DNA from: a virus | Taxonomy: Duplodnaviria; Caudoviricetes | Strand: one strand, 5' to 3' | Virus record (IMG/VR): IMGVR_UViG_3300028833_000061 | Span: 137,402-201,401 of that record | DNA length: 64,000 bases | Shown here: positions 30,005 through 44,741 of the stretch, in pieces | Position numbering within the stretch: the first letter of the stretch is position 1 | Layout: each line of letters opens with the position of its first letter | Made by a program: the position numbers and the translations under genes | The notes under the pieces: model-generated | What the model was told of the DNA's origin: nothing | Databases searched by the model: none | The model's input: the letters and a program-made list of their open reading frames with translations, nothing else

Positions 30005-31876
30005 CTAATACGTGTAACCACCTTTTCTTCTTACCCCAGGGTCAAAATAATTTCCAAATTCAACACCCTTGGCCAATCCAGGTATAGGATTGGTACTATG
30101 TATGTCTGACGTAGATCCATGCTGTGCGTCGTCTATCAGTCTCTGTTTCAAATACGTAGTTCCAAGCCTGGACACCCAATCTCTATCGGTACCGGTTGAT
30201 TTTACTATCGACTGCATGATTGGCATAACATCTATAGGACGATCGTTGGCCACGATGTCGTCTCCTACTCCAAACTTATCCAGGTCTTTAGCGACCCGAC
30301 GCGTTATCTTTGTGCCTATAGTGTAATGCAGCGCAGGCTGCTCAAGATACTTGCCTACAAGAGACGATGCCTTGCCACGCACAGAATCAGGTCTCGGCGA
30401 ATATCCACGAGACCATGTAGTATACGTAGTGACATCTCCTGGCAGAAGCTTCCCCTCAGAATCCTCGTTCTCTATCTCGACGTGATTTACAAGTGCTCTT
30501 GCGATAGATTCAACGTTACGCCTATGCGCCGAATATCCAGAGTCGCGAATGGCCTGTGTGAATCTTTCTGCGAAATACCTGCGTCCTTCGCCTATACCCT
30601 TGTACTTCACGACGTCCTTAGGATCTAGCACTCCATCGGAAATCTGATCTCCTGCCTCAAGCTCATCTCCATTCTTAACAAGAAGAGAATATCCAGGCGC
30701 AACATAATGCTGTTCGCCGCCTATTACAACGTACTCTCCGCCCTGCGGTGCCTTCTCTATGGAATCTACAGTTCCATCCTTTTTCGCAACTACAGCTCTA
30801 TCAGGATAATTTTCAGGCACTGTTGTGAGTGCCTTTATCATATTAAAGCCCTGGTATTTGCCGGCGCCGCTAGTAAGGCGACCTGAATGCTTTGTTGACA
30901 GACCAGCCTGTGCAATTCTCTCACTTATGGCGGAAGCCGCAGTAACACCGAGATTATAGCCAATCTCAGGAAACTTTCCGTTCTCTCGTATTCCTGCACA
31001 GTGTGCGCAAATTCCGCTGCTTGCCTGACACGTGACAGGTGACCTCACGGCTATGTCTTTTACACCGTCCTTTACAAAATCCTGTATGGTTGCCTTCGTG
31101 ATAACTTCGCCTGCCTTATGGCCACCGGCATCATATGCAAGTACCGATCCTATGTTGTCTTTGTCGGTAGCAGACACCGGCATGCCATACTTTGATCCGC
31201 AATCATCCTCTGTCACAACCTGATCTATGGCAAGAGAAGCCAACAGCTTTCCAAGTTCTCCTCCCTTTCGTGTCGCCTGTTTACCTGCGACAACACCGTT
31301 TCTGGCACCGTAAGAGCCAGCCCATAACTCAGCAGGAGAAAGCCCGTCAGCGTATGAATGCCTAATAAACATAGGTATCGGCTTGCCCTTGGTGTCGGTA
31401 TACACACCAGGAGAAGCAAGTAACGCTCCTAACTGAGCCTTGTTTCCTCTCGCCTTGGATTTTACCTGCATCGCGAAAGGGTTGTCATTCTTCAGTGCAG
31501 AATCATATGCACTGTCAAACATAAGACCAGTCATATCTGTATATAACTTGTCCAGAAGAGACCTCTTCTCGTCTTTTGATAACGACTTATCAGCAAGAAT
31601 CCTATTCTCCTGCTCGTCCATCATCTTGTAGACGGCAGACCTGTCAAACGGCGGAAGAGTATCTGACAGCCTAAGCGTTACTCCGCTTTCTACGGCTCCT
31701 CTGTTTCCAAGCTTAAGAAGCTTGTACGATATATCTTTGTATTTGTCCGGTTGCTCGTTTGCTATTTTCGACAGCAACTCGCTGATCCCGTCGGCACCCA
31801 TGACCCTTGTATAGTCACGGTACTCCGGCGGGATCGCATCATTTACGAATATCTGACCTACTGTCGTGCTTAGCAT
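30005..31876 (-). CDS. rpoC: DNA-directed RNA polymerase beta' subunit, C-terminal part
   Basis: STTVGQ, KARGNKAQL, bridge helix SYADGLS...YGARNG...GGELGKLL, VTEDDCG, Zn site RSPVTC..GICAHC, trigger loop GVTAASAISERIAQAGLSTKH. Confidence 0.95.
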   Translation of the reverse strand: MLSTTVGQIFVNDAIPPEYRDYTRVMGADGISELLSKIANEQPDKYKDISYKLLKLGNRGAVESGVTLRLSDTLPPFDRSAVYKMMDEQENRILADKSLSKDEKRSLLDKLYTDMTGLMFDSAYDSALKNDNPFAMQVKSKARGNKAQLGALLASPGVYTDTKGKPIPMFIRHSYADGLSPAELWAGSYGARNGVVAGKQATRKGGELGKLLASLAIDQVVTEDDCGSKYGMPVSATDKDNIGSVLAYDAGGHKAGEVITKATIQDFVKDGVKDIAVRSPVTCQASSGICAHCAGIRENGKFPEIGYNLGVTAASAISERIAQAGLSTKHSGRLTSGAGKYQGFNMIKALTTVPENYPDRAVVAKKDGTVDSIEKAPQGGEYVVIGGEQHYVAPGYSLLVKNGDELEAGDQISDGVLDPKDVVKYKGIGEGRRYFAERFTQAIRDSGYSAHRRNVESIARALVNHVEIENEDSEGKLLPGDVTTYTTWSRGYSPRPDSVRGKASSLVGKYLEQPALHYTIGTKITRRVAKDLDKFGVGDDIVANDRPIDVMPIMQSIVKSTGTDRDWVSRLGTTYLKQRLIDDAQHGSTSDIHSTNPIPGLAKGVEFGNYFDPGVRRKGGYTY

Positions 31877-32553
31877 TACCTAGCCGACCTGGCAACCGCT
31901 TTGTTGTAGAACGCGGCAACCTTGGCGGTAGGAACACCGCGCTGTACGCATCTGACGACGAATCCCTGTGTAAACGGATCCAGTCTTGCAAACATATCTT
32001 CAGCGCGTTTCTGTCTCTCTGCGGCGGATGCCTGCTTTTGCAGATTGCTTGCTGCAACGGCTGCTACGTACCTAGGATCGACGCCTCGTTCCTCGCAACG
32101 CTTCACAAAACCAGCCTGGTATGCCCTTGTCTCTGTGCTGTTCATTTCTGATGTCTTCTCCTGCTCGTCATTCGAAGAGTCTTCGTTTTTCTTCTTTTTC
32201 TTGTTCTCCTCGTCTGCCACATGCTTATCATAGTCCTTGGCGTACCCTCTAAGGCGCTTATCCTCGAGATAGTTGACAAGCTTCGCCCATCCGGCACCAT
32301 TTAGCATTCCAGCTCCACCGCCAGCAAGGCCACCAACAACAGTTCCAGCAGGACCACCAGCCGACCCAATCATCGCCCCAAGAACACCGCCAAGCGCGCC
32401 ATCCACTCCCATATTCCACTTATAGTTACTTGCACGACCGTTAAGATATCTCTCATAATCTGATGCGTCGTCGAACTCGGGCAAATTCAAGAGTCTTCTG
32501 GCGGCTGCATACTCCTCTGGTGTCAGTCTCTTAGCTTTCTTCTGCATGTGCAT
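31876..32553 (-). CDS. Glycine-zipper protein with two GF motifs and KxA sites
   Basis: MQKKAK; GALGGVLGAMIGSAGGPAG..; AYQAGFVKRCEERGVDP..KQAS; FTQGFVVRCVQRGV. Confidence 0.6.
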   Translation of the reverse strand: MHMQKKAKRLTPEEYAAARRLLNLPEFDDASDYERYLNGRASNYKWNMGVDGALGGVLGAMIGSAGGPAGTVVGGLAGGGAGMLNGAGWAKLVNYLEDKRLRGYAKDYDKHVADEENKKKKKNEDSSNDEQEKTSEMNSTETRAYQAGFVKRCEERGVDPRYVAAVAASNLQKQASAAERQKRAEDMFARLDPFTQGFVVRCVQRGVPTAKVAAFYNKAVARSAR

Positions 32554-32557
32554 TCTC

Positions 32558-33103
32558 CTAGCTTAAAGCGGACATGAGCATGTTCTTCAGATCCTTGACC
32601 TCATCAGCCAAAGCCTGATTTCCGTTGTCAGGAGCAGGCTGTGCCTGAGGCTGTGCGGGTGCTCCGCCGTTTATCTTCTGAGCAAGCTTAGATATCTTGT
32701 CAAACGCAGCAAGAAGCTGTGAGAATGTCAGCTTGATGTATGGCTCACCTTCTGGAGACATCTCCTCTCCGCCAGCAGGCGGAGGTTGCATGCCTGCTGC
32801 AGCTGGGTCTCCTGCCGGAGGTGCAGGAGGCATACCTCCCTGAGGAGGCATTCCGCCACCCATCATTGACGGATCTATTGGCATTCCAGTGCTTGGATCA
32901 ATCGGCATGCCCGTGCTTGGATCGACTGGCATACCCGTGGCCGGGTCAATCGGCATACCTGTGGCCGGGTCAATCGGCATTCCAGTTGCAGGATCTACCT
33001 GTTGTCCGCCACCCTGTGCGGCTGGATCTCCTCCTGCCGGAACAAAAGCCTGCTTCTTGAAGCCGGCTTTAACCTTAGCCAGCAAATCTTTGTCTAGAGC
33101 CAT
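32558..33103 (-). CDS. Pro/Gly/Met-rich repeat protein with a KAGFKKQA leader
   Basis: MALDKDLLAKVKAGFKKQA followed by DP[AS]TGMP[IV] repeats. Confidence 0.65.
   Translation of the reverse strand: MALDKDLLAKVKAGFKKQAFVPAGGDPAAQGGGQQVDPATGMPIDPATGMPIDPATGMPVDPSTGMPIDPSTGMPIDPSMMGGGMPPQGGMPPAPPAGDPAAAGMQPPPAGGEEMSPEGEPYIKLTFSQLLAAFDKISKLAQKINGGAPAQPQAQPAPDNGNQALADEVKDLKNMLMSALS
32871..32998 (-). repeat. Tandem 24-bp / 8-aa repeat DP[AS]TGMP[IV], five copies plus a partial
   Basis: Directly visible; the copies differ mostly at synonymous positions. Confidence 0.9.
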
Positions 33104-33112
33104 TTGTTGTCC

Positions 33113-33685
33113 TTACTTTTTGTATCTTATCACGTTAGACCGCTTCCTGCCGTCCTTGCTTAGTATCAGAAAAATAAATTCAGACGCAGCTGAACACTCG
33201 TTATTGTTCCAACCGCCGTATCCGTCCTTTATATTCTTCCAGCTCCTGGACGTCCTTGACGTTGAAATCCAATCCATCTTACCACATTTATAGATATTAT
33301 CAAACCTGTATCCGAAAACTGCCAAGGCTGACGCGTCGTTATCCGCAAGGCCCCATTCCTTAAGTGTTCTGCGAAATCTCGCTCTGGCCCACGCGTAAGA
33401 GAACTTACTGCCTACTGTGACTCTAAGATTTCGTATCTGCACTCCGGCGTGTTCTACCGCCTTCGAGCCGTCTACTCCGCCATACACCCATTTAAGCTTA
33501 GAAAAATCAACCTCGTCGCCCGACTTTTTGTTGTCATTTGCCGTGTCCGGGACAACAAACAGGTCCGCGTCTGGCTGCGTGGCATTTGACGTTTCTGGAT
33601 CAACGCCAAGCTTCTTCAGGATCCTGTTTATGAATCTCTGAAGTTCTTTCTTGATTTTATCTTTTAACTTGCTCATGGTGCTCAT
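33113..33685 (-). CDS. Hypothetical Trp-rich protein (likely start ATG 33676)
   Basis: VDFSKLKWVYGG...GKMDWISTSRTSR; has its own promoter. Confidence 0.6.
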   Translation of the reverse strand: MSTMSKLKDKIKKELQRFINRILKKLGVDPETSNATQPDADLFVVPDTANDNKKSGDEVDFSKLKWVYGGVDGSKAVEHAGVQIRNLRVTVGSKFSYAWARARFRRTLKEWGLADNDASALAVFGYRFDNIYKCGKMDWISTSRTSRSWKNIKDGYGGWNNNECSAASEFIFLILSKDGRKRSNVIRYKK

Positions 33686-33714
33686 ATAGTAACAGTTAAA
33701 AAAAGATTTAACAA
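33686..33714 (-). promoter_or_regulatory. Putative sigma70-type promoter
   Basis: TTGTTA-N17-TACTAT with a TG extension. Confidence 0.5.
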
Positions 33715-33721
33715 TATAAAC

Positions 33722-34159
33722 CTAAGCGACCATACGCCATCCAGGAAGACCATACTTGTCCGTCGCATCCTTTAGCACGTTCGCAACGAGATACAACTTC
33801 CACCTCTTCCACTGCCACCATCTGAATTTCTTTCTTGCTATAAGCCTTGTATTGTCCTTGAGCTGTTTATTCACAAGATGAAACTCATCCAACGTGCCAC
33901 CCTTGTAATACTTCAAATCGTGTATTGCAACAGCCTCCAGATCGTCTCGCAACAGACTAGACAATATATACCTTATATACGCAGGAAACCTGTCCGGTCC
34001 GACGCCGTTATACTGCTCTCTAAGAACTTCCTCAGGATAAGAATCAAAGATGTCCGCCCCACTCAGTCCGAGTGCTTTTGCAGATTTCACAAGATCCATT
34101 ATGTCTGGAAGCGGGCGGAGAGACTCCGCCTCTACGGTCGTTAGCTCAGAATTACTCAT
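33722..34159 (-). CDS. Phospholipase A2-like / DUF1353-like HD protein
   Basis: YNGVGP...AVAIHDLKYYKGG..., basic and Trp-rich C-terminus. Confidence 0.5.
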   Translation of the reverse strand: MSNSELTTVEAESLRPLPDIMDLVKSAKALGLSGADIFDSYPEEVLREQYNGVGPDRFPAYIRYILSSLLRDDLEAVAIHDLKYYKGGTLDEFHLVNKQLKDNTRLIARKKFRWWQWKRWKLYLVANVLKDATDKYGLPGWRMVA

Positions 34160-34165
34160 GCTGAA

Positions 34166-34194
34166 AAAGTATCACAGTAGCCAAAAAGAAGCAA
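34166..34194 (-). promoter_or_regulatory. Putative sigma70-type promoter, leaderless
   Basis: TTGCTT-N17-TACTTT with a TG extension; ATG 6 nt after the -10; no SD. Confidence 0.5.
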
Positions 34195-34215
34195 CAGCTT
34201 GCATTATAATTGAAA

Positions 34216-34246
34216 CAGAACCTGGGCCGTAAAAGCCCAGGTTCTG
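34216..34246 (-). terminator. Terminator-like hairpin
   Basis: Perfect 12-bp stem CAGAACCTGGGC/GCCCAGGTTCTG. Confidence 0.7.
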
Positions 34247-34264
34247 CATCCGTACACCTACATA

Positions 34265-35455
34265 CTACGGTCTAGTCGATTCCTCGCCAAGCCCTATAAG
34301 AAGGCGAAGCTCCTCAGGTGTTAGCTTTCTTTTCTTGTTGCGAGAGCCTGTATCAACACCGTCTATCCCGCGAAGGAGCAAATAACCCTGTGGAGATATC
34401 GAGCCCAGTGGAGCTGCGTTACCAGACGCAGACGTCTGCGGCTTACCCGCTGTCTCCTGAAGCTTCTTATACTGCTCGATTACCTGTCTTGCTTTCTCTT
34501 CTTCACGCAGTCTCTGAAGATCCGCCTCATCCTGTTCCTTAGCAAGCTGCTCCGCCTTTGCTTTCGATGCGAACGACTTGTCTGCCTCAGAGCCGGCCCT
34601 GAGCTTCTGAGACTGCTCCTGTGCGGCAAGTATTTGTCTGAGCAGCGGCGACATTGTTATGCCTGCTATTTCATCAGATCCGTTACCTGCCGTAGAGCCC
34701 CACAAAGGAACGTCAACTGTCTCTTTTACAATGCGACTTGGTTTAAAACCATCAGGAAATAGCTCACGCTGCTTAGCATTGGCTGCCTCTATAAGCTCGT
34801 TGTCATGCTTTATTTTGTTCGCCTTTTGAAGCCACTCCGCATACAGTTTCTTGTTCATCGCCGCTTCTCGTTTGGCGAGATTCCGATTCAGCTCAATTGC
34901 TCGATTATTAGCTTCTCTTACATCTTGGCCCATCAAATATCTCGTTGGATGAAGCAATCCACCATATGTATTTTGTCTTACCTCTTCCTCCGACATCACA
35001 GGTGCTCTCTTAAGCTTTATAGGCTTAAAAGGCGGTGGATAGCTAATCAGTTCCTGATCTTTGACTTTTTCGCCTCTGACAGGATATGAAATGTTTACAG
35101 AAGCATTATTAAAACCGTTAGTTATGGAGGCTAAACCACCTGGAAGTGTAACAAATCTATCTGTAGCAAGCGGACCGGCAGCATCTGGAGGAAGTATGTG
35201 GTTGATCATTGCTGGATCAGACAGTCTGAATGTCACTGGCTCGGTAGACGACAGATCGTAAAAGCCGCTCTTAAGCTTGTCCTCCTCTTCGCCAGGAGCG
35301 AGACGTACTCCTCCTCCAAGAGGACCTGTTGGCCTGTCAAGACTGCTAGGAGATGTGTCCTCAGGTTTAAGCGGAAGGCCACCGGGCAGTACAACCATGT
35401 CGGCTGCCAACTTCCTCATCGCAGACACGAAGCCATTCTTGAAATTATTCGTCAT
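34265..35455 (-). CDS. Leader-bearing putative capsid cargo protein (396 aa)
   Basis: MTNNFKNGFVSAMRKLAA leader; SD CAGGAG. Confidence 0.65.
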   Translation of the reverse strand: MTNNFKNGFVSAMRKLAADMVVLPGGLPLKPEDTSPSSLDRPTGPLGGGVRLAPGEEEDKLKSGFYDLSSTEPVTFRLSDPAMINHILPPDAAGPLATDRFVTLPGGLASITNGFNNASVNISYPVRGEKVKDQELISYPPPFKPIKLKRAPVMSEEEVRQNTYGGLLHPTRYLMGQDVREANNRAIELNRNLAKREAAMNKKLYAEWLQKANKIKHDNELIEAANAKQRELFPDGFKPSRIVKETVDVPLWGSTAGNGSDEIAGITMSPLLRQILAAQEQSQKLRAGSEADKSFASKAKAEQLAKEQDEADLQRLREEEKARQVIEQYKKLQETAGKPQTSASGNAAPLGSISPQGYLLLRGIDGVDTGSRNKKRKLTPEELRLLIGLGEESTRP

Positions 35456-35553
35456 GTTTACTCCTGTAGATGGATTAAATCTGTTTAAAGAATACCATAG
35501 CTAAAAAAAAAGCAAAAGACTATTTATTATAGATGAGGAATTATGGAGGTGTT

Positions 35554-36792
35554 CTACCATTCTTTGTCTATATTCTTCTCGAGCCACCCGCCACGCTGAT
35601 GCCTGTTACCGTGCACCTTGTGCACTATATTCGTTCCGTTTATGTGATAGCCATTATAACCGAGATGGTCTCCCTCTGCAGGAATTACTCGAATACCAAT
35701 CCTCGTGTTGTTCGATATCACGATCTTCTTGCCGTTCTTAAGCCTAAGTACGATCTCGTCGTGGCCATCTGTCTTATCTGGAGTAAACGACTCGACCTCT
35801 CCTTCGCCAGACTCGTAGGTCTCACTCTTAGAGGATGCCTTCTTCTCAACGACCTTGTCGATGTTTCCTGAGCTGAAGCCCATGGACCCATACTTCTTGT
35901 TATCGAATTCAACGACGAACGACTTCCAGCCGTGCTTGTTTTCAGGGTCTATGCGCACGATCGTGCCTATATGGCCCTTCTGTTGGCATCTGATGTTGTC
36001 TGAAACCTTTACACGATCCCCGACTGAGAACGACTTCTCCTTTTCCTTCAGCTCATCCTCGGTAGGAAACTTTGAGTTCGGAAACAGCTTCTTTAGGTCG
36101 AGCGAAGAGGCCTTCTTCTCTGCCACGTTGTATACGAGCTTCCTGTAGCCTTTCGCGTTCTTCGGAGTGGCGTCCTCGAACCCTGCTGACAGGGCGGCCC
36201 GTATCGACGGTTCGTTGTCTGCGAACGCCTCCCACAATAGCCTTTTGACATTCTCCTTCCTGGCTTTCCTGACGGCCGCCTCCACCATGATCTTGGCTAG
36301 ACCGTTTCCACGGGCCTCCGAAGAAACGGCAATTATATTGTGAGGAGGAAGTTTCCTGCCTCTCTTGTCCTTGCGCGAGTAAAACTCCTGGAACCCTACG
36401 GGATCGCCTTTTCCGTCAACTACGACCTGCCTGTCGAACAGTATGTCGTCTGGTACCTTGCGAAGGAAGTCAGGATGTCTTGGAACAAGGTTTGCCCTGT
36501 CGTCGAAGTCAAGCTTGTCGAACACCTTGAGTGTGTCCTCGTACGTTGGATCCTTCTTGAGGCTATACGATTCGGCCTTCTTGCTCCAATCCTCGTACGG
36601 ATCAGCTCCGTGTTCCAGCTCCCATTTTATCTGAGCTTCCCTAGCATTCCTTACTGCAGGATTGCCGTTGTTGCTTATGCCAGACGCACCGTCCGTTACG
36701 ATGAAGAAGTTCAGGCCTTGCTTCTTTGCAAGCCTGTTCACGGCGTCAACCAGCTTACGTGCCTTAATCAGCTTTTTCTCTTCCGGTGTCAT
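35554..36792 (-). CDS. Four-domain polyprotein: small domain / GNAT acetyltransferase / SH3-KOW-like / DUF3465-like OB fold
   Basis: GNAT IAVSSEARGNGLAK..DNEPSIRAALSAGF; FSVGDRVKV..GTIV..FVVEFD; GEVE..HDEIVLRLKNGKKIVISNN..GDHL..VH..H..GWL. The domains are separated by KKA. Confidence 0.75.
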   Translation of the reverse strand: MTPEEKKLIKARKLVDAVNRLAKKQGLNFFIVTDGASGISNNGNPAVRNAREAQIKWELEHGADPYEDWSKKAESYSLKKDPTYEDTLKVFDKLDFDDRANLVPRHPDFLRKVPDDILFDRQVVVDGKGDPVGFQEFYSRKDKRGRKLPPHNIIAVSSEARGNGLAKIMVEAAVRKARKENVKRLLWEAFADNEPSIRAALSAGFEDATPKNAKGYRKLVYNVAEKKASSLDLKKLFPNSKFPTEDELKEKEKSFSVGDRVKVSDNIRCQQKGHIGTIVRIDPENKHGWKSFVVEFDNKKYGSMGFSSGNIDKVVEKKASSKSETYESGEGEVESFTPDKTDGHDEIVLRLKNGKKIVISNNTRIGIRVIPAEGDHLGYNGYHINGTNIVHKVHGNRHQRGGWLEKNIDKEW

Positions 36793-37097
36793 TAAAATCT
36801 AAACTGAAAGCCGGTAACAGGTGCTCCGCTTCCATGTCTTATGTTAAGCGCGTTCACCAAAGGTTTGAAAACCCACTGATTCCTCTGCAGCCAGTTAGGC
36901 TTTTTATAGTGCTCAAGTCCGGGAAGATCTGTTTCTTTCGGCGAATCAGACAAAGAAGCAGCAGAAGACACTGCCTGTAGTCCAGCTGTAGCTGGTGCGT
37001 GTCCTCCCATCCATACAGACGCGAAAGGCAGTGACAAATCTGGCTTCTGCTCTTCTGCCAGCTTGTCCATGAATCCGCGTTTAAAATTTTCCGTCAT
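36792..37097 (-). CDS. Leader-bearing putative cargo protein (101 aa)
   Basis: MTENFKRGFMDKLA leader. Confidence 0.6.
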   Translation of the reverse strand: MTENFKRGFMDKLAEEQKPDLSLPFASVWMGGHAPATAGLQAVSSAASLSDSPKETDLPGLEHYKKPNWLQRNQWVFKPLVNALNIRHGSGAPVTGFQFRF

Positions 37098-37160
37098 TTT
37101 TAAAACCTTTATGCTACTATATCACATAAAGAGCAATTTTAACACACAAAGGGCCTGCAG

Positions 37161-38048: not shown

Positions 38049-38077
38049 AAAAAGCCGACGATTTTTACGTCGCCGGC
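38047..38077 (-). terminator. Terminator between convergent genes
   Basis: Bulged GCCGACG/CGTCG(CC)GGC hairpin next to an A7 run. Confidence 0.5.
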
Positions 38078-38096
38078 TCTGTAGTTGTGTAGGCCG

Positions 38097-38546
38097 CTAA
38101 GTTTGCGTGGTTGTTTGAACCTTTTTTATCTTTTCAACGTATGGATCCGTAGATTTCTTTAGCCAGCCCTGAGGACCACCGTTGTGTATTCGAATAAGCA
38201 CTTCGATGGTTGCGGGTTTTCCTGTGCGACGAGTATATGCCGAACCGTACCGAGTAAGATACGCTCTTGCAACCTCATAGGACTTAGCCCTGTCCTTCAT
38301 GTCGTTCAGGGTATATGAAAGGCGGGAGTCGGTCAAGTAGGGCTGCTGGATCTGAAGGCAACCGACAGATAGCTTTCCGTTGGTGTCGGTGACGACCACG
38401 TCGGTCCTGCCGTTGCTTTCAACAATAGCAACTGCATCGAGAAACGACGTCCAGTCGGCGTCGGTAGTCGGAATAGTCGAAAGGTCGATTCCGAAGGAGT
38501 TGATGACCATGCAGAACGCCACGACCATGGCTGCGAGTTTTTTCAT
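38097..38546 (-). CDS. Secreted lysozyme-fold muramidase (destabilase/i-type-like)
   Basis: Signal peptide MKKLAAMVVAFCMVINSFG; catalytic VESNG, GCLQI, RIHNGGPQG. Confidence 0.8.
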   Translation of the reverse strand: MKKLAAMVVAFCMVINSFGIDLSTIPTTDADWTSFLDAVAIVESNGRTDVVVTDTNGKLSVGCLQIQQPYLTDSRLSYTLNDMKDRAKSYEVARAYLTRYGSAYTRRTGKPATIEVLIRIHNGGPQGWLKKSTDPYVEKIKKVQTTTQT

Positions 38547-38669
38547 TTGTTTTTTTTTTGTTAAAAAGAATCACGGGCATCAGGAATTGATGTCCGCTTC
38601 TTTTTACCAGGTATCCAACCCGGCATTATATTATAACGCTCAAAAGTCTATTTTTATTCTTACGCAGCA

Positions 38670-40301
38670 CTACAGACCAAACTTCTTCAAGGCCAACGAT
38701 ACAGAATCTCTAGTGTCTCTTCCTGGCCATCCCTGTGCCTTGTCTATGTCCTTAAGCCAGTTGGGATTGGCCCTGTAATAAGGTTCAAAATAGTCTGAAT
38801 TCAATCTACTTAGATTATCTATCCATCCATACGTAGGATTGTACACCATCTCATGTCCCAAGACCGTGGTTGGCGTAAAGACAGAAGGACCGACCTCGTC
38901 GAAGAATCTAAGCATCTCGCTACGAAGCTTCTGAGCTTTCGCGTCATCGACAGCAGTCGTACTACCGGCATCGGTTGGTCTAAGTCCACCAGTCTTTCCT
39001 ATGTCAGAAACCGCTGTATCTACGTAATTTGTCCCTAGTGGCGTCAACGCATTTGCGTCAAAATCCCACAGGCCTCCGGACATACCAAAGTCAGCTGGCC
39101 TTGAAGAGTCTCCAAACCCGCCATTTACATAAGCGGATATGGAATTCCTGAACATAGGATATTTTCCTGTCTGCTGTACTACTGCTCTTAAAACAGCCTC
39201 ATCCAGAGCATTATCAGCGGCCCACTGCCTGTCCTCGTCTGACATTCCGCTGTCACCAGCCCACGCCCCCATCATAGGAGCCCAGCTGTAAGCCATGTTT
39301 CCTATAGACGGATCCATGCTAAAACTGGTGTTCTCGTCTGTAGGAAGCATGGATGCGGCCAACGACGTGAACCTACTCTGACGTGGTGCATATCCTACGC
39401 CGTCTCTGGCATACGTCTCTCTGCCGACAGGCGTCTTCTCTAGCGCAGATGCTTTAGATGCATTGAAAAACGGCGTTCCGGCGTAATCAGCCTCTTGCAT
39501 AGGAGCGCCTTCGCCTCCTGGAGACATGAACGGAACATTGAACCTTAGAGGACGATAAGCCGTTGCCGGCTTGCCTTTGGTGCTATGATTGTTCTTCTCT
39601 GCAGCGGCCGCCGCGTCTCTGTTAACCTTTGCGTAGTCCTTCGGTGTCTGTGCACCCATCATCTCATCAAGGACCGCGATGTTGTCGTCATTTCTCTTTG
39701 CCATAGAATACGCGGCACCACCGTATTTCTGCATTCTACGGCGTTTCTTGTTCCTGCTTCTCCTATCTAGAAACAGATACGTGAGAAGAGCTGTTGTGGC
39801 AAGACCTCCCCAAGTCCACGGACTCTTCCAGTCGACAGACCAGCCACCGTTCGTCTGCTGAGGCGTTGTCGTATTTACAGGATTAGTATTAGGAACATCT
39901 GGAACACCTGCATCAGTACCAGCAGAATCAGCAAGAAGGCTCTCGTCCACTGTAGACTGAGATGGCTGCGGAGGTGCATCGACCTGTGGAGCGGGCGCTG
40001 GCGCTGTTTCTGGTGGATTTACGCTTGCTGTTGGAGCCGCTCCAGGTCTGAACAGTCCTCCGGTCTCTCTCTTTGCCGTGGTTCCAACGGCAGAAGCGGC
40101 CTGCTGTGGCGTGTAGGCCTGACCTTTTGCTCCAGTTGCCTTCCATGCCCTCTGGGCAGCGTCCTGAACAATGTCCTTTCCTACAAGATTGAACATCCTC
40201 TTCTCCCCGTCATTATAGAACAACCACGGCGGAACTGAGTCAGTAGCATAGTCCTTCGTTAGAATGCGTTCGGCTGTCGTCTTCGGTCTTTGAATGGCCA
40301 T
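38670..40301 (-). CDS. Hypothetical single-TM protein (543 aa)
   Basis: WTWGGLATTALLTYLFL followed by a basic RRSRNKKRRR stretch; Pro-rich linker. Confidence 0.6.
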   Translation of the reverse strand: MAIQRPKTTAERILTKDYATDSVPPWLFYNDGEKRMFNLVGKDIVQDAAQRAWKATGAKGQAYTPQQAASAVGTTAKRETGGLFRPGAAPTASVNPPETAPAPAPQVDAPPQPSQSTVDESLLADSAGTDAGVPDVPNTNPVNTTTPQQTNGGWSVDWKSPWTWGGLATTALLTYLFLDRRSRNKKRRRMQKYGGAAYSMAKRNDDNIAVLDEMMGAQTPKDYAKVNRDAAAAAEKNNHSTKGKPATAYRPLRFNVPFMSPGGEGAPMQEADYAGTPFFNASKASALEKTPVGRETYARDGVGYAPRQSRFTSLAASMLPTDENTSFSMDPSIGNMAYSWAPMMGAWAGDSGMSDEDRQWAADNALDEAVLRAVVQQTGKYPMFRNSISAYVNGGFGDSSRPADFGMSGGLWDFDANALTPLGTNYVDTAVSDIGKTGGLRPTDAGSTTAVDDAKAQKLRSEMLRFFDEVGPSVFTPTTVLGHEMVYNPTYGWIDNLSRLNSDYFEPYYRANPNWLKDIDKAQGWPGRDTRDSVSLALKKFGL

Positions 40302-40310
40302 AGTAGGCTC

Positions 40311-43300
40311 CTACATGTCTAAAATTTGAACTGGATCGTTCATTCCTATGAGACCTTGTCTGTAGGCCTCCTTGGCATCTTTCGCTGTTCTGAATACCTT
40401 GGGCCTCTTCCTCGTCGCAGGCCTTGTAAGATTGTACAGTCCCATCACCTGCTCGTTCTCAGGCTTGTATCTTGGAGACGACAAATCTGTAAGCGAAATT
40501 AGATTCTTGGATGGAAGCATCTTCTCGTATGCTTCCCTGACAGCCTTGTCAGACGACGGCACGTGAATGTTAACCTGGTCTCCGTCGAAATCTCCAGCCA
40601 TTGGCGATGCGCTGAACGGGCTTATTCGTATCGACTTTCCGTCAACAAGCGACGGTTTGTATGCCATGATGTTGAACTTGTGCCATGTCGGAGCCCTGTC
40701 CATCAAAACAGGCCTGTTTGCCATCTCCTCCTGAAGCGCATTAAGCGCTGTGTCGTCCCTGCCTCTTATCATATTTACAGCCTGAACGGGACTGTACCCG
40801 CGTCTAACCAACCGACGCTGTACATATGGCTTATACATCTCCCACGCAATATCCTTCGGTATGCCGATCTGGTCCATATCCAGGTTTTCATCTGGAGTTA
40901 TGACCGCTCGTCCTACATTGTCGAGGTTCTTGGCTATGATCTTGGCCTGGAACATAGAAAATTTCGGAGAACCTGTTCCTATAACCTGCCTTATGGCTCC
41001 TTTGATGTTCTTGGACTGTCCCTCTGGCGTTATTGGGTCTCCAAGTCCAAACACAGCGGCTACAGACTTGTACAGGTTCAGCCTCTCGTCCGCTAGAGAT
41101 TCGTCTGCAACAGATCCCTTCAGCGCAGAATAATTCTCGGCGTTCTCTATGACGTCCTTGTATAGATCGTTAAGATCCGATACTAGTTGCGTATCGCCAA
41201 GTTTAGACACGGGCCTGAACTTCGGAGGTATGACAGGAACCTTTGTTATCATCCAATCCTTGGGCTCAAGGCCCTGCTCCTGCATCGATTTAAGATATCC
41301 AAGTACCTTTACCGCGTTGTCTCTTCCGGCGCCTCTCTTGTTCTGGATGTCATTTCTGGCTGCCGATATTGCCTTGTCGACGTCAATGGCCTCAAGCGCT
41401 GACTTTATCGCCTCTCCGCCAGTCTTTCCATTCAACTTCTCTGTGCCTGACAAAATCTTCTCAAGCTGATCTACTGTAAGACCAAGTACACGCCTTACAG
41501 GCTCCTCCATTATAGGATTCGGTATAGGCTCTGGAAGCTTTATAGCTGACCACCTGAGACCGTCTGGACCGCCTGTCTTCCCGAGGTCAAACAAACCGCC
41601 GTCTACAGGCTTCAGATCTGAATTCATCATCTTGGAATTCTTTATAATTCTATTGCCTGCCATCTCGTCGATATCTTTGTCCGTAAGAGGAAGTATAGAC
41701 GTCTTGCTTCCCTTCTCTACGACATTTATTCCTCCGGCCTTCAGCGTCTCCAGGAATTTGTTGTATATGAAAGGAACACCAGGTTCAGGTACTGGAAGCC
41801 CTAATCTAAGTTTGTTCCAGTACTCCTCGTTCTTCGTGCCGCGGATCGTCATCATATCCTTTAGATTCTCTGTCGCGCCGTGTGACAAAAGAGCCGTCCT
41901 GTCGAGACCCGAGACCCTTTTGGCTCCTGAAAATCCGCCTCTTGCCGGTGCTTCGTCCTGAGTATATGCAGCATCGTTTCCTCTGGCAGACAGCTTTTTC
42001 TCTGCGAGATGGTGGAACGCCTGAATGTATACGTAGCCATCACCGATGTTGTGCAGCGTCTTTCCGGTACTTGGGTCAAATATGTCCGAAGAATCCTTGA
42101 CTCCGGCAGCATCAAGCTGTGCCTTCGCCCAAGTCGCCCATCCCTCCTCAGGAGGAAGCTGTGGGATGCGTACCTGCTTTCCGGTCTTCTTGGCAACCTT
42201 GCCAAGAGCTATCTCGATAAGCTGATTCGGGGCAACTCGTGACAGGAATCCCATAGGATTCATTAGAATCTCGTAAGGCTCGTTCGTAACCGCGTCACGA
42301 GGCATCTCGTCGTCTGGACGGACTTCTCCTATTGTACCCTTGAGAGCGTCATGAGGAGACAGCTTGTCTGCTACCTGCTTTGGCGGCGTAGTCACGACAT
42401 TTACCTTGGCGCCGCTTGGCGTCATTACAGCATCGACAACAGTGCCAGGCCAGTCGTGCTCCCACACCTCTGATCTATCTGTAAACGAATTACGCAGCGT
42501 CTTTGACAGCTTGCCGAGCATTGCATCTTTCGCAGACAGAAGCTTCGGCCCGATAGATACGATTATAGGATCGCCTTTGTGAAGTACGGTTCCAGGCTTG
42601 GCTATTCCATTGTCGTCTATGTTTTCAAGCTGCTGCTTCGTAAAAGCCTGCGGGAATGCCGCCATGTACTTCTTCTTGTCTATAAGCACGCCGTTCTTCT
42701 TGTCCGTGTCAAATCCGAACAGCTGTTCGGTAGCCAGCTTCTTGGCCGCAGTCTCGGATATGACTATCGCGTCCTCGAAGTTGCCTGACTTGCCTGACGG
42801 CATAATTGCTACCTTCAGGTTGACGCCCGTATTGAACGATCCTGTTTTCTTGTCCGTGAAGTTGGAGTGGGCTATCAAATCGCCCTTTCTAACGCTCTGC
42901 CCGACCTCAACGGCAGGAAACGTCGAGAACGACGACATTCTATTATGTGGATAGTACTTTACAAGATCGTACGTCCTCTTCTTGCCATCTGCACCCTTTA
43001 CGACGACACTGTCGTCGTTCACAGCAGTCACGACTCCGTCTTCATTGGCTGTGACGGAGCCTATTCTCTTTCCATAATGCTCAAGAAAAGTCTCTTTTCC
43101 ATCAGGCATCAAAGACGCGACTAGAGGAACCTCTCCCTTTGCCATCGGAAGATACTGCTCCCAGAACTTTGTAGCATAGAACTGTCTTGCGCCCTGGACG
43201 CCTGTCGGCATTGGATTGAAGTTGGTTGTCGTAGTAGACATGGACGAGAAATCGGGCACCATGTACGAAACCTCGTTCCTTGCCACCTTGGTAGGAACGT

Positions 43301-44741
43301 TATCCTTCATTGCATACAGGAATTTCGAATTGGGATCCTGTCCAGGAAATGCAACACCACCATCGACAGCCTTTGCCAGGCTTACAAACTCCTTCTTGCC
43401 CGTCTTCAGATTTATAAACTTCGAGTACAGCTGGCCGTCTTTTCCTTTATATGTATTGGAGGCGGCTCTGACATCCACACCCGCATTCATCGACTCAGGG
43501 CCAGCAACAGGATCAACAAATCCAAGATAATCTCCCTGCACATCCCTTGCTTCTGCAGTAACGGCATCTGGAGATCCGATTCCGCCTTGGCCCATCTTGG
43601 TTATGCGGTTCATCTGAACATAGTTCGATATCGGATTTGCCTCTTCGCCAGGAAGCGCAAGACCCGTTCCGCTCAAGAAATGCTCGATGTACGGATTCAG
43701 CGCGCCTCTCGGAATCCTTCCAAGATTACGATCGCGCTTAGCCTTCCACAACAGCTGCTGCGTAAGCTTTCCAGAGTCCTTGTCGACACGTTCCTTAAGA
43801 AAGTCCTCTATCGAATAGACGCTAGAATACCTAGGAGAGTCTCTTCTGTCAGGCTGTTCGTCGCCCCTGGATATGTTTATTACCTTCTGCGAGGCGCGTA
43901 GGAGAAGCTCTGGCGTGATTCCCTTGGTATCTACAAGACCCATAGTGCGCTGGACGACATCCTCGTCCATTCCACACTGTGCAAGGGAATCCTTAACGTA
44001 TCTCGCCATCTCAAACTCATTGGCAAGAGCATCCGCCTTCTTGCCTGCAAGTCTGCGATATAGCCTCTTCATAGCCTGAGAGTCGTGCTTCTTTGCGTTC
44101 TCAAGCGTTACGTCGTTGCCCCAGTACTTTGCGATTGTCTTGTCGTCTACGCCTATGCCCTTAAGCACTGGATACAACGGTATGTGACCCTGGCCAACCT
44201 GCATGCTGAACACGCCTGTCTCTGGATTCATCTCTATTCTGAATCCAGGGCCTGTTCCAGGTTTTACATTGAATTGGGCCTCGTACTCTCCAGACGTCTT
44301 TCGTCTTGCGTACACGCCAGGACGAAGTCTCGACTGATTGACTACAGTGTACTCATTTCCATTAGAAATTATCGTACCTCTGTCCGTGTAATACGGCACG
44401 TTCATTATAACGTCATCACGCTCGTCTATGACCTTGTTGCTCTTCTTGTCGATAAGTTTCCACGTTCCAGACATCCTCGTCTGGAGCTTACGGTTCTTCA
44501 GAAGAGCGTCCTTCTGCTGTGCTATGGTGAAGCTCTGAGGACTGGTATACCTTACGTTGTCCAGCTCGATCCTGTAGTCGTCGTTCTCAACAGGAAACCG
44601 TTTCTTTACAGAATCCAGAAGTCCATCATATATGAACTGACGTGTCTTTTTTGTGTCATCGAACTGGCGCAGGTCGTCAGGAACGTCGGACACCGTGCCC
44701 GCCGCCTGCTTTTGTGCCAGTGGTATGCTGTCGAGAAGCAT
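40311..44741 (-). CDS. rpoBC: DNA-directed RNA polymerase, beta fused to the N-terminal part of beta' (carries the catalytic site)
   Basis: Beta motifs: NFEDAIVISE, ADKLSPHDALKG, NPMGFLSR, HHLAEKKLSAR, GAKRVSG. Beta' motifs: VPVIPPKFRP, DLNDLY, GRAVITP, DRAPTWHK, AGDFDGDQ (40578-40598). Confidence 0.95.
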   Translation of the reverse strand: MLLDSIPLAQKQAAGTVSDVPDDLRQFDDTKKTRQFIYDGLLDSVKKRFPVENDDYRIELDNVRYTSPQSFTIAQQKDALLKNRKLQTRMSGTWKLIDKKSNKVIDERDDVIMNVPYYTDRGTIISNGNEYTVVNQSRLRPGVYARRKTSGEYEAQFNVKPGTGPGFRIEMNPETGVFSMQVGQGHIPLYPVLKGIGVDDKTIAKYWGNDVTLENAKKHDSQAMKRLYRRLAGKKADALANEFEMARYVKDSLAQCGMDEDVVQRTMGLVDTKGITPELLLRASQKVINISRGDEQPDRRDSPRYSSVYSIEDFLKERVDKDSGKLTQQLLWKAKRDRNLGRIPRGALNPYIEHFLSGTGLALPGEEANPISNYVQMNRITKMGQGGIGSPDAVTAEARDVQGDYLGFVDPVAGPESMNAGVDVRAASNTYKGKDGQLYSKFINLKTGKKEFVSLAKAVDGGVAFPGQDPNSKFLYAMKDNVPTKVARNEVSYMVPDFSSMSTTTTNFNPMPTGVQGARQFYATKFWEQYLPMAKGEVPLVASLMPDGKETFLEHYGKRIGSVTANEDGVVTAVNDDSVVVKGADGKKRTYDLVKYYPHNRMSSFSTFPAVEVGQSVRKGDLIAHSNFTDKKTGSFNTGVNLKVAIMPSGKSGNFEDAIVISETAAKKLATEQLFGFDTDKKNGVLIDKKKYMAAFPQAFTKQQLENIDDNGIAKPGTVLHKGDPIIVSIGPKLLSAKDAMLGKLSKTLRNSFTDRSEVWEHDWPGTVVDAVMTPSGAKVNVVTTPPKQVADKLSPHDALKGTIGEVRPDDEMPRDAVTNEPYEILMNPMGFLSRVAPNQLIEIALGKVAKKTGKQVRIPQLPPEEGWATWAKAQLDAAGVKDSSDIFDPSTGKTLHNIGDGYVYIQAFHHLAEKKLSARGNDAAYTQDEAPARGGFSGAKRVSGLDRTALLSHGATENLKDMMTIRGTKNEEYWNKLRLGLPVPEPGVPFIYNKFLETLKAGGINVVEKGSKTSILPLTDKDIDEMAGNRIIKNSKMMNSDLKPVDGGLFDLGKTGGPDGLRWSAIKLPEPIPNPIMEEPVRRVLGLTVDQLEKILSGTEKLNGKTGGEAIKSALEAIDVDKAISAARNDIQNKRGAGRDNAVKVLGYLKSMQEQGLEPKDWMITKVPVIPPKFRPVSKLGDTQLVSDLNDLYKDVIENAENYSALKGSVADESLADERLNLYKSVAAVFGLGDPITPEGQSKNIKGAIRQVIGTGSPKFSMFQAKIIAKNLDNVGRAVITPDENLDMDQIGIPKDIAWEMYKPYVQRRLVRRGYSPVQAVNMIRGRDDTALNALQEEMANRPVLMDRAPTWHKFNIMAYKPSLVDGKSIRISPFSASPMAGDFDGDQVNIHVPSSDKAVREAYEKMLPSKNLISLTDLSSPRYKPENEQVMGLYNLTRPATRKRPKVFRTAKDAKEAYRQGLIGMNDPVQILDM

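What the first reader, a model, noticed from the sequence alone, without database searches (positions are those of the whole stretch)
30005..44741. Unusual RNAP architecture: beta fused to beta'-N, with beta'-C encoded 8.4 kb away
Seen: the 1476-aa ORF runs from the beta C-terminus (GVPFIYNKFLETLKAGGINV) directly into the beta' N-terminus (ILPLTDKDI..KPVDGGLF, junction near 41710). It ends at KEAYRQGLIGMNDPVQI, and the 623-aa ORF resumes at STTVGQ. Known: beta-beta' fusions occur in Helicobacter and Wolbachia, and beta' is split in cyanobacteria, where the TTxGR motif stays on RpoC1. Here that motif starts the second chain, so this looks like an independent split in the same linker region. The layout differs from phiKZ-type splits. 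The catalytic aspartates are on one chain and the bridge helix and trigger loop on the other. No alpha or omega gene is recognisable in the window.
Basis: partly seen in the sequence, partly recalled or inferred. Interest (0 to 1): 0.8.

Follow-up and report, generated by a model that had tools for sequence, protein, structure and literature searches.

The report
Fused-and-split two-chain phage RNA polymerase
This uncultured 201-kb sheep/goat-gut phage makes its only RNA polymerase from two proteins (all of beta joined to the front half of beta-prime, and the back half of beta-prime separately) plus its own sigma factor and no alpha or omega. At least 150 sequence clusters of phage proteins share this layout, but no paper I could search describes it.

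Summary
ORF 40311-44741(-), 1476 aa, is a complete beta. An 8-residue linker joins it to beta-prime residues ~17-552 (E. coli numbering), which include the AGDFDGD metal site. ORF 30005-31876(-), 623 aa, starts at the TTVGQ motif and carries the bridge helix, trigger loop and second zinc site.

It is not an assembly error. A ~95.6%-identical goat-gut contig from another study keeps the frame open across the junction. All 150 best database relatives align across the junction in one piece, and 145 end at the same C-terminus. dN/dS is about 0.05.

This is the genome's only RNA polymerase. No alpha or omega is detectable. A sigma-70-family gene lies in the window at 1479-2189.

The same layout occurs in Salmonella phage Arash, where both chains and the sigma are abundant virion proteins, and in Vibrio phages D69, D148 and D181. 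The 8.4-kb spacing is a variable cassette, 0.6-8.4 kb in relatives.

New here: sister phages encode the whole enzyme as one ~2070-2150-aa chain. The split lies ~15 residues upstream of the cyanobacterial one. Relatives carry many inteins.

This scan had already reported the layout on other genomes. I found no paper that describes it.

The parts
40311..44741 (-). Gene for the beta::beta-prime-N fusion chain (1476 aa, P0001)
   Evidence: ORF and translation. Pfam Rpb2_3, Rpb2_6, Rpb1_1 and Rpb1_2. Mapped to Salmonella RpoB 115-1337 and RpoC 166-550. dN/dS 0.054 against the relative L021.
41709..44741 (-). Beta module (residues 1-1011). E. coli lineage insert SI2 is absent.
   Evidence: BLASTP pieces 103-236, 352-779, 778-857 and 887-1007 against RpoB.
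41697..41720 (-). 8-residue linker VEKGSKTS joining the beta C-terminus (GINV) to beta-prime (ILPLTDKDI)
   Evidence: Pairwise alignment with the RpoB C-terminus plus the RpoC N-terminus. Coordinates.
40314..41696 (-). Beta-prime N-terminal module (residues 1016-1476). It lacks the four-Cys zinc-binding domain, holds AGDFDGD at 1382-1388 (DNA 40578-40598), and ends at about E. coli beta-prime 552.
   Evidence: There is no Cys in residues 1010-1100.
30005..31876 (-). Gene for beta-prime-C (623 aa, P0002). TTVGQ at residues 4-8, bridge helix ~191-219, second zinc site C226/C283/C290/C293, trigger loop ~317-352. No SI3 insert.
   Evidence: AlphaFold model mean pLDDT 79.7. The whole length aligns to bacterial beta-prime C-halves and cyanobacterial RpoC2, Z 29-33.
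31877..40310 (-). Variable cassette of about 10 co-directional genes between the two polymerase genes. It includes a GNAT acetyltransferase (35554-36792) and a lysozyme/SLT-like ORF (38097-38546). It is not part of the enzyme.
   Evidence: PHROG and Pfam scans. No homologs in Arash or D69. Cassette length varies among relatives. The goat-gut strain lacks 37190-38097.
1479..2189 (-). Sigma-70-family factor (236 aa; the ORF is open to 2273), homolog of Arash virion protein gp10. Probable initiation factor of this polymerase.
   Evidence: BLASTP to Arash gp10 at 8e-15. Pfam Sigma70_r3 at 5.8e-12 and a weak r4 hit. Relatives are 233-295 aa. AlphaFold pLDDT 85.9. The listed Foldseek PDB matches (about 50 rows, E 3e-8 to 4e-6) are all sigma factors.
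27615..29939 (-). 774-aa gene directly downstream of beta-prime-C. This position is conserved. It is a homolog of Arash structural protein gp218.
   Evidence: tblastn to Arash gp218 and D69_0266. The same neighbour follows beta-prime-C in L021, L022 and the P0196 contig. Function unknown.

Best explanation
The two ORFs together encode the complete catalytic core of the phage's only multisubunit RNA polymerase, divided differently from any textbook enzyme.

Chain 1 is an unsplit beta tethered by eight residues to the front of beta-prime. That front part carries the clamp helices and the AGDFDGD Mg site and has no N-terminal zinc ribbon.

Chain 2 starts at the surface loop that precedes TTVGR (E. 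coli beta-prime ~553-571). It supplies the bridge helix, the trigger loop, the second zinc site and the C-terminal clamp part.

These points are shown. What follows is inference.
- The core works with a phage sigma-70-family factor (window 1479-2189), and possibly with a second protein that has only sigma region 4, encoded elsewhere in the genome.
- It works without alpha or omega. The covalent beta/beta-prime tether takes over part of the assembly role of the alpha dimer.
- By analogy with phage Arash, core plus sigma are made late, packed into the capsid and injected to start early transcription. Because it is the only polymerase, newly made enzyme probably also transcribes later genes, which would make the phage independent of host RNA polymerase.
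- The layout most likely arose by fission of a single-chain beta-beta-prime gene at a split-tolerant loop, possibly through insertion of mobile DNA. The gap has since become a variable gene cassette.
For: Domain content and mapping.

The gene is real and constrained:
- An independent goat-gut contig keeps the frame.
- 150 of 150 relatives span the junction in one piece, and 145 of 150 share the C-terminus.
- dN/dS is 0.054.

It is the only polymerase set in a genome that CheckV rates 100% complete: one match each for Rpb2_6, Rpb1_2 and Rpb1_5.

No alpha or omega by Pfam, while all 14 control genomes gave matches.

Sigma.

Virion packaging in a homolog: in Arash, gp206 was the most-detected protein in purified particles (3516 spectra). 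Gp216 gave 1210 spectra and sigma gp10 gave 467 (PMC10585845).

The genes sit in the head-gene block, and the order beta-prime-C, gp218-like, gp220-like, protease, capsid is conserved with Arash.

Single-chain sister forms of 2064-2155 aa exist, against 2099 aa for this phage's two chains together. One of them lies on a contig that also carries a terminase.

Trees: the split clade is monophyletic (SH-aLRT 99). Together with ten single-chain forms (98) it excludes Salmonella and phage GN1. Single-chain forms lie between the split clade and the bacteria.

Mobile DNA at work in relatives: inteins, and a homing-endonuclease gene that cuts the D181 fusion gene.

Background: natural rpoB-rpoC fusions in Helicobacter and Wolbachia, and E. 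coli beta-prime split at the chloroplast site, are cited in PMC7483510.
Against: - No biochemistry exists for any member of the clade.
- Packaging is shown only for Arash, which is ~31% identical. The Arash authors themselves note that abundant infection-phase proteins could contaminate particle preparations.
- Sigma dependence is inferred from co-occurrence and fold, not from binding.
- Absence of alpha and omega rests on Pfam-level searches. A very divergent or non-homologous assembly subunit could hide among the many unannotated ORFs.
- The direction of the fission is unresolved. In the concatenated tree the ten single-chain forms are a weakly supported sister group (80), so re-fusion of a split ancestor is as parsimonious. 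GN1 and P0366 sit on long branches.
- The RNA-library contigs (X1, X4) may be carried-over DNA, so transcription is not shown.
Confidence: 0.8

Rival explanations
1. The fusion is a precursor. A head-maturation or other protease cuts the linker after synthesis or packaging, so the working enzyme has separate beta and beta-prime-N chains.
For: The genes lie in the head module near the prohead protease homolog (20885-22435). From general knowledge, internal head proteins of large phages are often processed.
Against: The linker is only 8 residues, and the flanks align directly to the beta C-terminus and beta-prime N-terminus. These termini are neighbours in bacterial RNAP, and natural uncleaved fusions work (cited). 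Arash Gp206 is reported with 100% peptide coverage and 128 unique peptides, which argues against complete cleavage there.
Confidence: 0.06
2. The enzyme is not carried in the virion of this phage. It is an intracellular middle/late polymerase, and early genes are read by host RNA polymerase.
For: Virion data exist only for a ~31%-identical relative. There is only one polymerase set, unlike phiKZ, which has a dedicated virion copy. Sigma-70-like consensus sites occur in the region, though no more often than in shuffled sequence.
Against: The genes are embedded in the structural block with conserved synteny to Arash. The sigma homolog of the Arash virion protein is conserved.
Confidence: 0.2
3. 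The long ORF is an assembly or frameshift artefact that joins adjacent rpoB-like and rpoC-like genes.
For: Bacterial rpoB and rpoC are adjacent, and one indel could merge them.
Against: An independent goat-gut assembly at ~95.6% identity keeps the frame. Sheep-gut contigs are identical across the junction. 150 of 150 relatives at 39-65% identity cross the junction in one piece. Cultured phages Arash and D69 carry the same gene.
Confidence: 0.01
4. The two beta-prime halves are rejoined after translation by a split intein (trans-splicing), so the mature enzyme is a single chain.
For: Inteins are very common in this clade.
Against: The fusion chain aligns to beta-prime up to 3-4 residues from its end. 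Chain 2 aligns from residue 1-3. That leaves no room for intein halves of ~100 aa and ~35 aa. Pfam finds no intein or Hint domain in either ORF.
Confidence: 0.01

Closest known systems
Salmonella phage Arash gp206 + gp216, with sigma gp10 (OQ632216; PMC10585845), and Vibrio phages D69, D148 and D181
   Same: The same fusion and the same cut column in the alignment. Full-length identity is ~31% and ~30%. They share the sigma homolog and the order beta-prime-C, gp218-like, gp220-like, protease, capsid. There is a single polymerase set.
   Different: They are only distantly related: core genes are 25-39% identical. Arash has 9 genes and 4.8 kb between the two genes, with a helicase after beta-prime-C. 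D69 has 2 small genes and 0.6 kb. The window has 10 genes and 8.4 kb. The paper annotates the chains simply as beta and beta-prime and does not mention the fusion or the split.
Single-chain beta-beta-prime polymerases of uncultured phages (P0341-P0345, P0349, P0353-P0355, P0360; 2064-2155 aa)
   Same: The same compact enzyme and the same beta/beta-prime-N junction. They share a C-terminal ~120 residues that align in sequence only within these two groups. In the tree they group with the split clade (98).
   Different: Beta-prime is continuous there. In P0341 only ~5 residues separate the parts that match the two window chains. Identity is 25-35%.
RpoBC fusions of Helicobacter and Wolbachia (Zakharova 1999 and Lane & Darst 2010, cited in PMC7483510)
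   Same: The beta C-terminus is tethered to the beta-prime N-terminus.
   Different: In the bacteria the whole beta-prime is in the fused chain, and alpha, omega and the zinc ribbon are present (general knowledge). Here beta-prime is cut again after the catalytic barrel. Not tested here: no Helicobacter or Wolbachia sequence was in my trees.
Cyanobacterial and chloroplast gamma (RpoC1) plus beta-prime (RpoC2)
   Same: Beta-prime is cut in the linker after the catalytic double-psi barrel. RpoC2 of Synechococcus elongatus PCC 7942 is the best structural match of chain 2 (Z 32.6).
   Different: The cut is ~15 residues further downstream, so TTxGR stays on gamma. Beta is a separate chain. Cyanobacteria-like sequences nest inside bacteria, far from the phage clade.
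phiKZ/AR9-type virion and non-virion multisubunit polymerases (PMC7598289, PMC7824862)
   Same: Phage-encoded, no alpha or omega, beta-prime cut after the catalytic barrel, and a virion-packaged form.
   Different: Those phages have two paralogous sets, beta split into 2-3 pieces and no sigma (PMC7824862). Their sequences are much further from bacteria: PHROG matches of 1e-11 to 1e-18, against 1e-45 to 1e-58 for the bacterial-like families. Here there is one set, an intact and fused beta, and a sigma factor.

Membership tests
Bacterial-type multisubunit RNAP core (beta/beta-prime) | Beta catalytic region (Pfam Rpb2_6) and fork/hybrid-binding region (Rpb2_3) | tested here: met
   Rpb2_6 at 9.9e-34 and Rpb2_3 at 2.3e-4. 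Mapped to RpoB 115-1337.
Bacterial-type multisubunit RNAP core (beta/beta-prime) | Beta-prime metal-binding motif (N)ADFDGD, bridge helix and trigger loop | tested here: met
   AGDFDGD at residues 1382-1388 of chain 1. Chain 2 aligns to beta-prime 720-938 and 1154-1283 and structurally to 569-1363.
Bacterial-type multisubunit RNAP core (beta/beta-prime) | Alpha dimer and omega encoded alongside | tested here: not met
   PF01000 and PF01192 give no match in the whole genome at E<=10, while 14 of 14 control genomes match. Very divergent analogues are not excluded.
Bacterial-type multisubunit RNAP core (beta/beta-prime) | Beta-prime N-terminal four-Cys zinc-binding domain | tested here: not met
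   About 30 residues are deleted, and there is no Cys in residues 1010-1100. The second zinc site is kept (C226, C283, C290, C293 of chain 2).
Arash-like fused-and-split phage RNAP clade (unnamed) | Beta fused to beta-prime-N, with the chain ending just before TTxG | tested here: met
   Same cut column as Arash and D69. 145 of 150 relatives end at the same point.
Arash-like fused-and-split phage RNAP clade (unnamed) | Separate beta-prime-C of ~600-630 aa followed by the gp218-like gene, plus a gp10-like sigma | tested here: met
Arash-like fused-and-split phage RNAP clade (unnamed) | Both chains and sigma present in virions | not testable with these tools
   Shown only for Arash by mass spectrometry.
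phiKZ/AR9-type phage RNAPs | Two paralogous sets (virion and non-virion) | tested here: not met
   One match each for Rpb2_6, Rpb1_2 and Rpb1_5 in the complete genome.
phiKZ/AR9-type phage RNAPs | Beta split into two or three polypeptides, and no sigma | tested here: not met
   Beta is continuous and fused. A sigma-family gene is present.
Helicobacter/Wolbachia-type RpoBC | Whole beta and whole beta-prime in one chain | tested here: not met
   The chain stops at about beta-prime 552, and the rest is a separate gene.
Cyanobacterial gamma/beta-prime split | Cut at the same residue, and descent from the cyanobacterial lineage | tested here: not met
   The cut is ~15 residues upstream. Cyanobacteria-like beta-double-prime sequences (P0365, P0356) group with bacteria.
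mReC phages (Weinheimer & Aylward 2020, PMC7481178) | Separate beta and beta-prime genes with a Gp23-type capsid protein (PF07068) | tested here: not met
   Beta is fused. The capsid homolog (17649-18614) has no Pfam match at E<=0.01. No mReC sequences were available for a direct tree.

The most novel reading that the evidence does not exclude
This clade carries the smallest self-sufficient bacterial-type transcription machine known: two polypeptides plus a sigma factor, with no alpha, omega or zinc ribbon. The covalent beta/beta-prime tether replaces the alpha-dimer assembly platform. The enzyme is injected with the DNA. It descends by gene fission from a single-chain beta-beta-prime polymerase that survives in sister phages. 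The family is large, common in animal guts and undescribed in print.
Probability: 0.45. Interest if true: 0.75.

Novelty: new variant of a known kind. Interest (0 to 1): 0.62.

Why it matters
Phage-encoded multisubunit RNA polymerases are known mainly from phiKZ-like jumbo phages. Those enzymes are so diverged that their link to cellular polymerases is disputed.

This family is much closer to bacterial RNAP: about 30% identity, with sigma retained. Yet it dispenses with alpha, omega and the zinc ribbon, and it re-partitions the two large subunits.

That makes three questions testable with only two or three recombinant proteins:
- How can a bacterial-type core assemble without the alpha platform?
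- What does the beta/beta-prime tether contribute?
- How is such an enzyme packaged and injected?

Single-chain and two-chain sister forms coexist, inteins sit at active-site positions, and a homing-endonuclease gene cuts the D181 copy. Together these give a natural series for studying how polymerase genes are split and fused.

In practical terms, database annotations of these genes as plain 'beta' and 'beta-prime' are misleading. A rifampicin-independent phage transcription system in gut phages bears on host-takeover biology.

Tried and rejected
- Megablast of the 14.7-kb region against GenBank phages gave no match.
- The exhaustive representative search refuses queries over 1200 aa, so I used residues 700-1476.
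- phmmer of the first 60 residues of chain 2 against PDB gave nothing. The cyanobacterial cut was placed instead.
- AR9 beta-prime-C was too divergent to align at the cut, and it is attracted to the split clade in the tree by its long branch. I drew no conclusion from it.
- The ~500-1400-aa C-terminal extensions on some beta-prime-C relatives match neither any ORF of this genome nor Arash helicase gp217. They have no informative Pfam match.
- The ESM Atlas gave nothing for the conserved 774-aa neighbour.
- The sigma-70 promoter and terminator consensus scan found no more sites than shuffled sequence, so no operon structure is claimed.
- The PF00940 (T7-like RNAP) search found nothing, but its controls cannot match either, so it is uninformative.
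- The careful IQ-TREE run did not finish in time, so the quick tree is reported.
- RNA-library contigs cover the region, but DNA carry-over cannot be excluded, so expression is not claimed.
- DNA of the contig that carries the closest fusion relative (P0003) could not be fetched. Gene lengths hint that beta-prime-C is not between the fusion and the 775-aa gene there, but this could not be checked.
- Five literature searches and readings of three reviews and the mReC paper found no description of the layout. The library holds open-access papers only.

Full report
WHAT IS THERE

The window is the last 64 kb of a 201,401-bp IMG/VR virus record that CheckV rates 100% complete. Nearly all genes in the window are on the minus strand.

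ORF 40311-44741(-) encodes 1476 aa, and ORF 30005-31876(-) encodes 623 aa. In the long ORF, Pfam finds beta domains Rpb2_3 and Rpb2_6 followed by beta-prime domains Rpb1_1 and Rpb1_2. In the short ORF it finds Rpb1_5.

Against Salmonella RpoB and RpoC, which have the same lengths as the E. coli proteins (1342 and 1407 aa) and are used here as a proxy for E. coli numbering, the mapping is as follows:
- Long ORF 103-1007 covers beta 115-1337, without lineage insert SI2.
- Long ORF 1090-1473 covers beta-prime 166-550.
- Short ORF 132-332 and 361-486 cover beta-prime 720-938 and 1154-1283, without SI3.

The junction reads GINV, then VEKGSKTS, then ILPLTDKDI. The last five residues of beta and the first ~16 of beta-prime are replaced by an eight-residue linker at DNA 41697-41720.

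The four-Cys zinc ribbon of beta-prime is deleted: there is no Cys in residues 1010-1100. The second zinc site survives on the short chain. The metal motif is AGDFDGD.

An AlphaFold model of the short chain has mean pLDDT 79.7. It aligns over residues 1-623 with E. coli beta-prime 569-1363 (Z 29.4) and equally well with other bacteria. The best single match is cyanobacterial RpoC2 (Z 32.6). The C-terminal ~130 residues do not align in sequence with bacterial beta-prime, yet they are the ordinary beta-prime C-terminal region in structure.

IS IT REAL?

Yes.
- Contigs from two sheep-gut RNA libraries and from the probable source DNA run are identical across the junction.
- A goat-gut contig from a different study (39200-44221, 223 substitutions, ~95.6% identical) crosses the junction. 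Its only indel is an in-frame 3-nt insertion at 39959, in the next gene.
- An exhaustive profile-free search with residues 700-1476 returned 150 representatives at 39-65% identity. All 150 align across the junction in one piece, and 145 end within 25 residues of the same C-terminus. None contains the beta-prime-C part.
- Against the 81%-identical relative L021, dN/dS is 0.054.

THE REST OF THE ENZYME

The genome holds one match each for Rpb2_6, Rpb1_2 and Rpb1_5. It holds none for alpha (PF01000) or omega (PF01192), although every one of 14 control genomes matched.

The window does encode a sigma factor at 1479-2189(-).
- It is the homolog of Arash gp10.
- It has Pfam Sigma70_r3 at 5.8e-12 and a weak r4 hit.
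- Relatives are 233-295 aa.
- Its AlphaFold model has pLDDT 85.9, and the listed Foldseek PDB matches (about 50 rows) are all sigma factors, including SigA, sigma-S and sigma-32.

A second small protein lies outside the window at genome 117596-118186. It has a very strong region-4 match (72.7 bits) behind a Cys-rich N-terminus.

RELATIVES AND CONTEXT

The same two-gene layout occurs in Salmonella phage Arash (gp206, 1525 aa; gp216, 606 aa) and in Vibrio phages D69, D148 and D181, at ~30% identity over the full length. TerL, portal, protease and capsid are 25-39% identical to Arash, so the window is a distant member of that unclassified group.

The Arash paper reports virion mass spectrometry. 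Gp206 was the most-detected protein (3516 spectra), Gp216 gave 1210 spectra and sigma Gp10 gave 467. The paper calls the chains beta and beta-prime without noting the fusion (PMC10585845).

Stand-alone beta-prime-C proteins of 619-630 aa fill the top of a list of 946 clusters. Many sit on 140-203-kb contigs.

The gene after beta-prime-C is conserved. It is 774 aa here and corresponds to Arash gp218. The spacer between the two polymerase genes is not conserved:

| Genome | Spacer | Genes in spacer |
|---|---|---|
| D69 | 0.6 kb | 2 |
| P0196 contig | 1.5 kb | 2 |
| Arash | 4.8 kb | 9 |
| L021 | 5.2 kb | 7, including a GNAT |
| This window | 8.4 kb | 10, including a GNAT and a lysozyme-like ORF |

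None of the ten genes here has a homolog in Arash or D69. The goat-gut strain already differs by a 906-bp replacement inside the cassette. In two further relatives beta-prime-C is not next to the fusion: none lies in the 4.6 kb to the contig end after P0035, and gene lengths suggest the same for P0003. So '8.4 kb away' describes an insertion hot spot, not a design feature.

WHERE THE CUT LIES

The window, Arash and D69 are cut at the same alignment column. This falls in the variable loop that corresponds to E. coli beta-prime 553-571, immediately before TTVGR.

Cyanobacterial gamma runs ~64 residues past the end of the phage chain. Cyanobacterial RpoC2 starts opposite residue 15-17 of the phage chain by structure, or about 10 residues in by profile.

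Sokolova et al. state that phiKZ-type virion and non-virion beta-prime chains are cut at the cyanobacterial site (PMC7598289). In coliphage EP_H11 I find the cut ~35 residues upstream, with the gene order reversed. Other phages have an uncut beta-prime: Va2, Rhizobium RHph_TM30 and Yersinia GN1. The linker after the catalytic barrel has thus been cut repeatedly, at slightly different residues.

SINGLE-CHAIN SISTERS AND THE LIKELY ORIGIN

Searching for longer relatives of chain 2 uncovered proteins of 2064-2155 aa that contain beta and a whole, uncut beta-prime. In P0341, five residues separate the parts that match the two window chains. The two window chains sum to 2099 aa. One such protein sits on a contig that also carries a terminase.

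The C-terminal ~120 residues of chain 2 align in sequence only with these proteins and with the split clade.

In a 54-sequence tree of the beta-prime-C module, the split clade is one group. The single-chain forms lie between it and a cluster (SH-aLRT 95) of other phages (Va2, TM30, EP_H11) plus bacteria.

In a 2022-column concatenated tree, the split clade is monophyletic (99). It groups (98) with ten single-chain forms, to the exclusion of GN1, P0366 and Salmonella. Those ten form only a weakly supported clade (80).

The beta/beta-prime-N fusion is therefore a shared, old feature. Fission of a single-chain ancestor is my preferred reading, but re-fusion is not excluded.

Mobile elements are plainly active in these genes.
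- 125 of the 150 fusion relatives carry one to four insertions of 100 aa or more.
- The insertions cluster at recurrent sites, the commonest right after the third catalytic Asp.
- The three sampled include Intein_splicing and LAGLIDADG domains.
- In D181, a free-standing homing-endonuclease gene cuts the fusion gene into 514-aa and 1006-aa ORFs.
- An older proposal holds that split phage polymerase genes arose through mobile introns (quoted in PMC7598289). It fits the variable cassette at the fission point.

HOW IT PROBABLY WORKS

Shown: the two chains contain every catalytic module of a bacterial core.

Inferred:
- They assemble without alpha or omega. In bacterial RNAP the beta C-terminus and beta-prime N-terminus are adjacent (general knowledge), and natural fusions function (Zakharova 1999 and Lane & Darst 2010, as cited). 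The tether plausibly replaces part of the alpha platform.
- Initiation uses the phage sigma.
- By analogy with Arash, core and sigma are packed into the head and injected. Because this is the only polymerase, it likely serves all temporal classes, perhaps with the region-4-only protein as a second specificity factor.

COMPARISON AND NOVELTY

The enzyme is not a phiKZ-type polymerase, which would have two sets, a split beta and no sigma (PMC7824862). It is not an mReC-type enzyme, which has separate subunits and a Gp23 capsid (PMC7481178). It is not a Helicobacter-type RpoBC and not a cyanobacterial split.

It is a member of an Arash-like clade whose subunit partition I could not find described in any searchable paper.

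Earlier agents of this scan reported the same layout on other genomes, with the same conclusion. I reached it independently. This report adds the single-chain sister forms, the structural placement of the cut, the cassette comparison, the strain-level read evidence and the intein site map.

Noticed in passing
genome G000:C1:117596-118186 (-), outside the window: A ~150-196-aa protein with a very strong Sigma70 region-4 match (72.7 bits) behind a Cys-rich N-terminus, and no region 2 or 3. It could be a minimal second specificity factor for the phage polymerase.
   Followed up: partly
relatives P0003-P0152, positions given on P0001: 125 of 150 fusion relatives carry 1-4 insertions of 100 aa or more. 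Recurrent sites are ~400-425, ~600-650, ~775-825, ~900-925, ~1250 and ~1375-1390, the last just after DFDGD. Pfam confirms Intein_splicing and LAGLIDADG domains in two of the three sampled (P0099, P0011). The window's own copy has no such insertion. Beta-prime-C relatives also carry inteins.
   Followed up: partly
P0004 (N-terminus) and P0316: An inorganic pyrophosphatase domain (PF18823) is fused to the N-terminus of a fusion-chain relative. The same domain is listed on a beta-prime-C relative. This may couple pyrophosphate removal to transcription.
   Followed up: no
window 35554-36792 (-); L021:6872-7828; P0338: A GNAT acetyltransferase gene sits in the cassette between the two polymerase genes, here and in relative L021. 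In P0338, GNAT domains are listed on the same protein as beta-prime-C. This may indicate a functional link.
   Followed up: no
P0295-P0315, P0327: Beta-prime-C relatives of 1100-2000 aa carry long C-terminal extensions with no informative Pfam match and no match to this genome or to Arash gp217.
   Followed up: partly
window 44748-45071 (-) and 45068-47053 (-): The 107-aa and 661-aa ORFs directly upstream of the fusion gene overlap by 4 nt. By eye, the 107-aa ORF resembles the C-terminal end of the 829-aa gene upstream of the fusion in relative L021; tblastn gave no match. P0003's contig has a 780-aa gene at the same position. The gene is either split here or contains a sequencing error.
   Followed up: partly
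window 37190-38097 and 38549: The ~95%-identical goat-gut strain replaces 906 bases with 53 other letters. A T-run at 38549 varies in length between runs. A strong terminator-like hairpin lies at 38080-38051 (-).
   Followed up: no
L024 (Vibrio phage D181) 3022-8536: A homing-endonuclease gene (4848-5465) and small ORFs interrupt the fusion gene. This leaves ORFs of 514 and 1006 aa. It is either a fresh additional split or an unannotated intron.
   Followed up: partly
window 4797-8693, 50783-54625, 57700-60930 (all -): Three very large ORFs (1298, 1280 and 1076 aa). The two scanned against PHROGs (1280 and 1076 aa) and the one scanned against Pfam (1298 aa) gave no match. They are probably virion or ejection proteins.
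   Followed up: no
genome G000:C1:1695-3461 (-): The portal homolog of Arash gp204 lies at the opposite end of the linear record from the polymerase genes. The 661-aa ORF beside the fusion gene occupies the position that the portal gene has in Arash, but it is not the portal homolog.
   Followed up: partly
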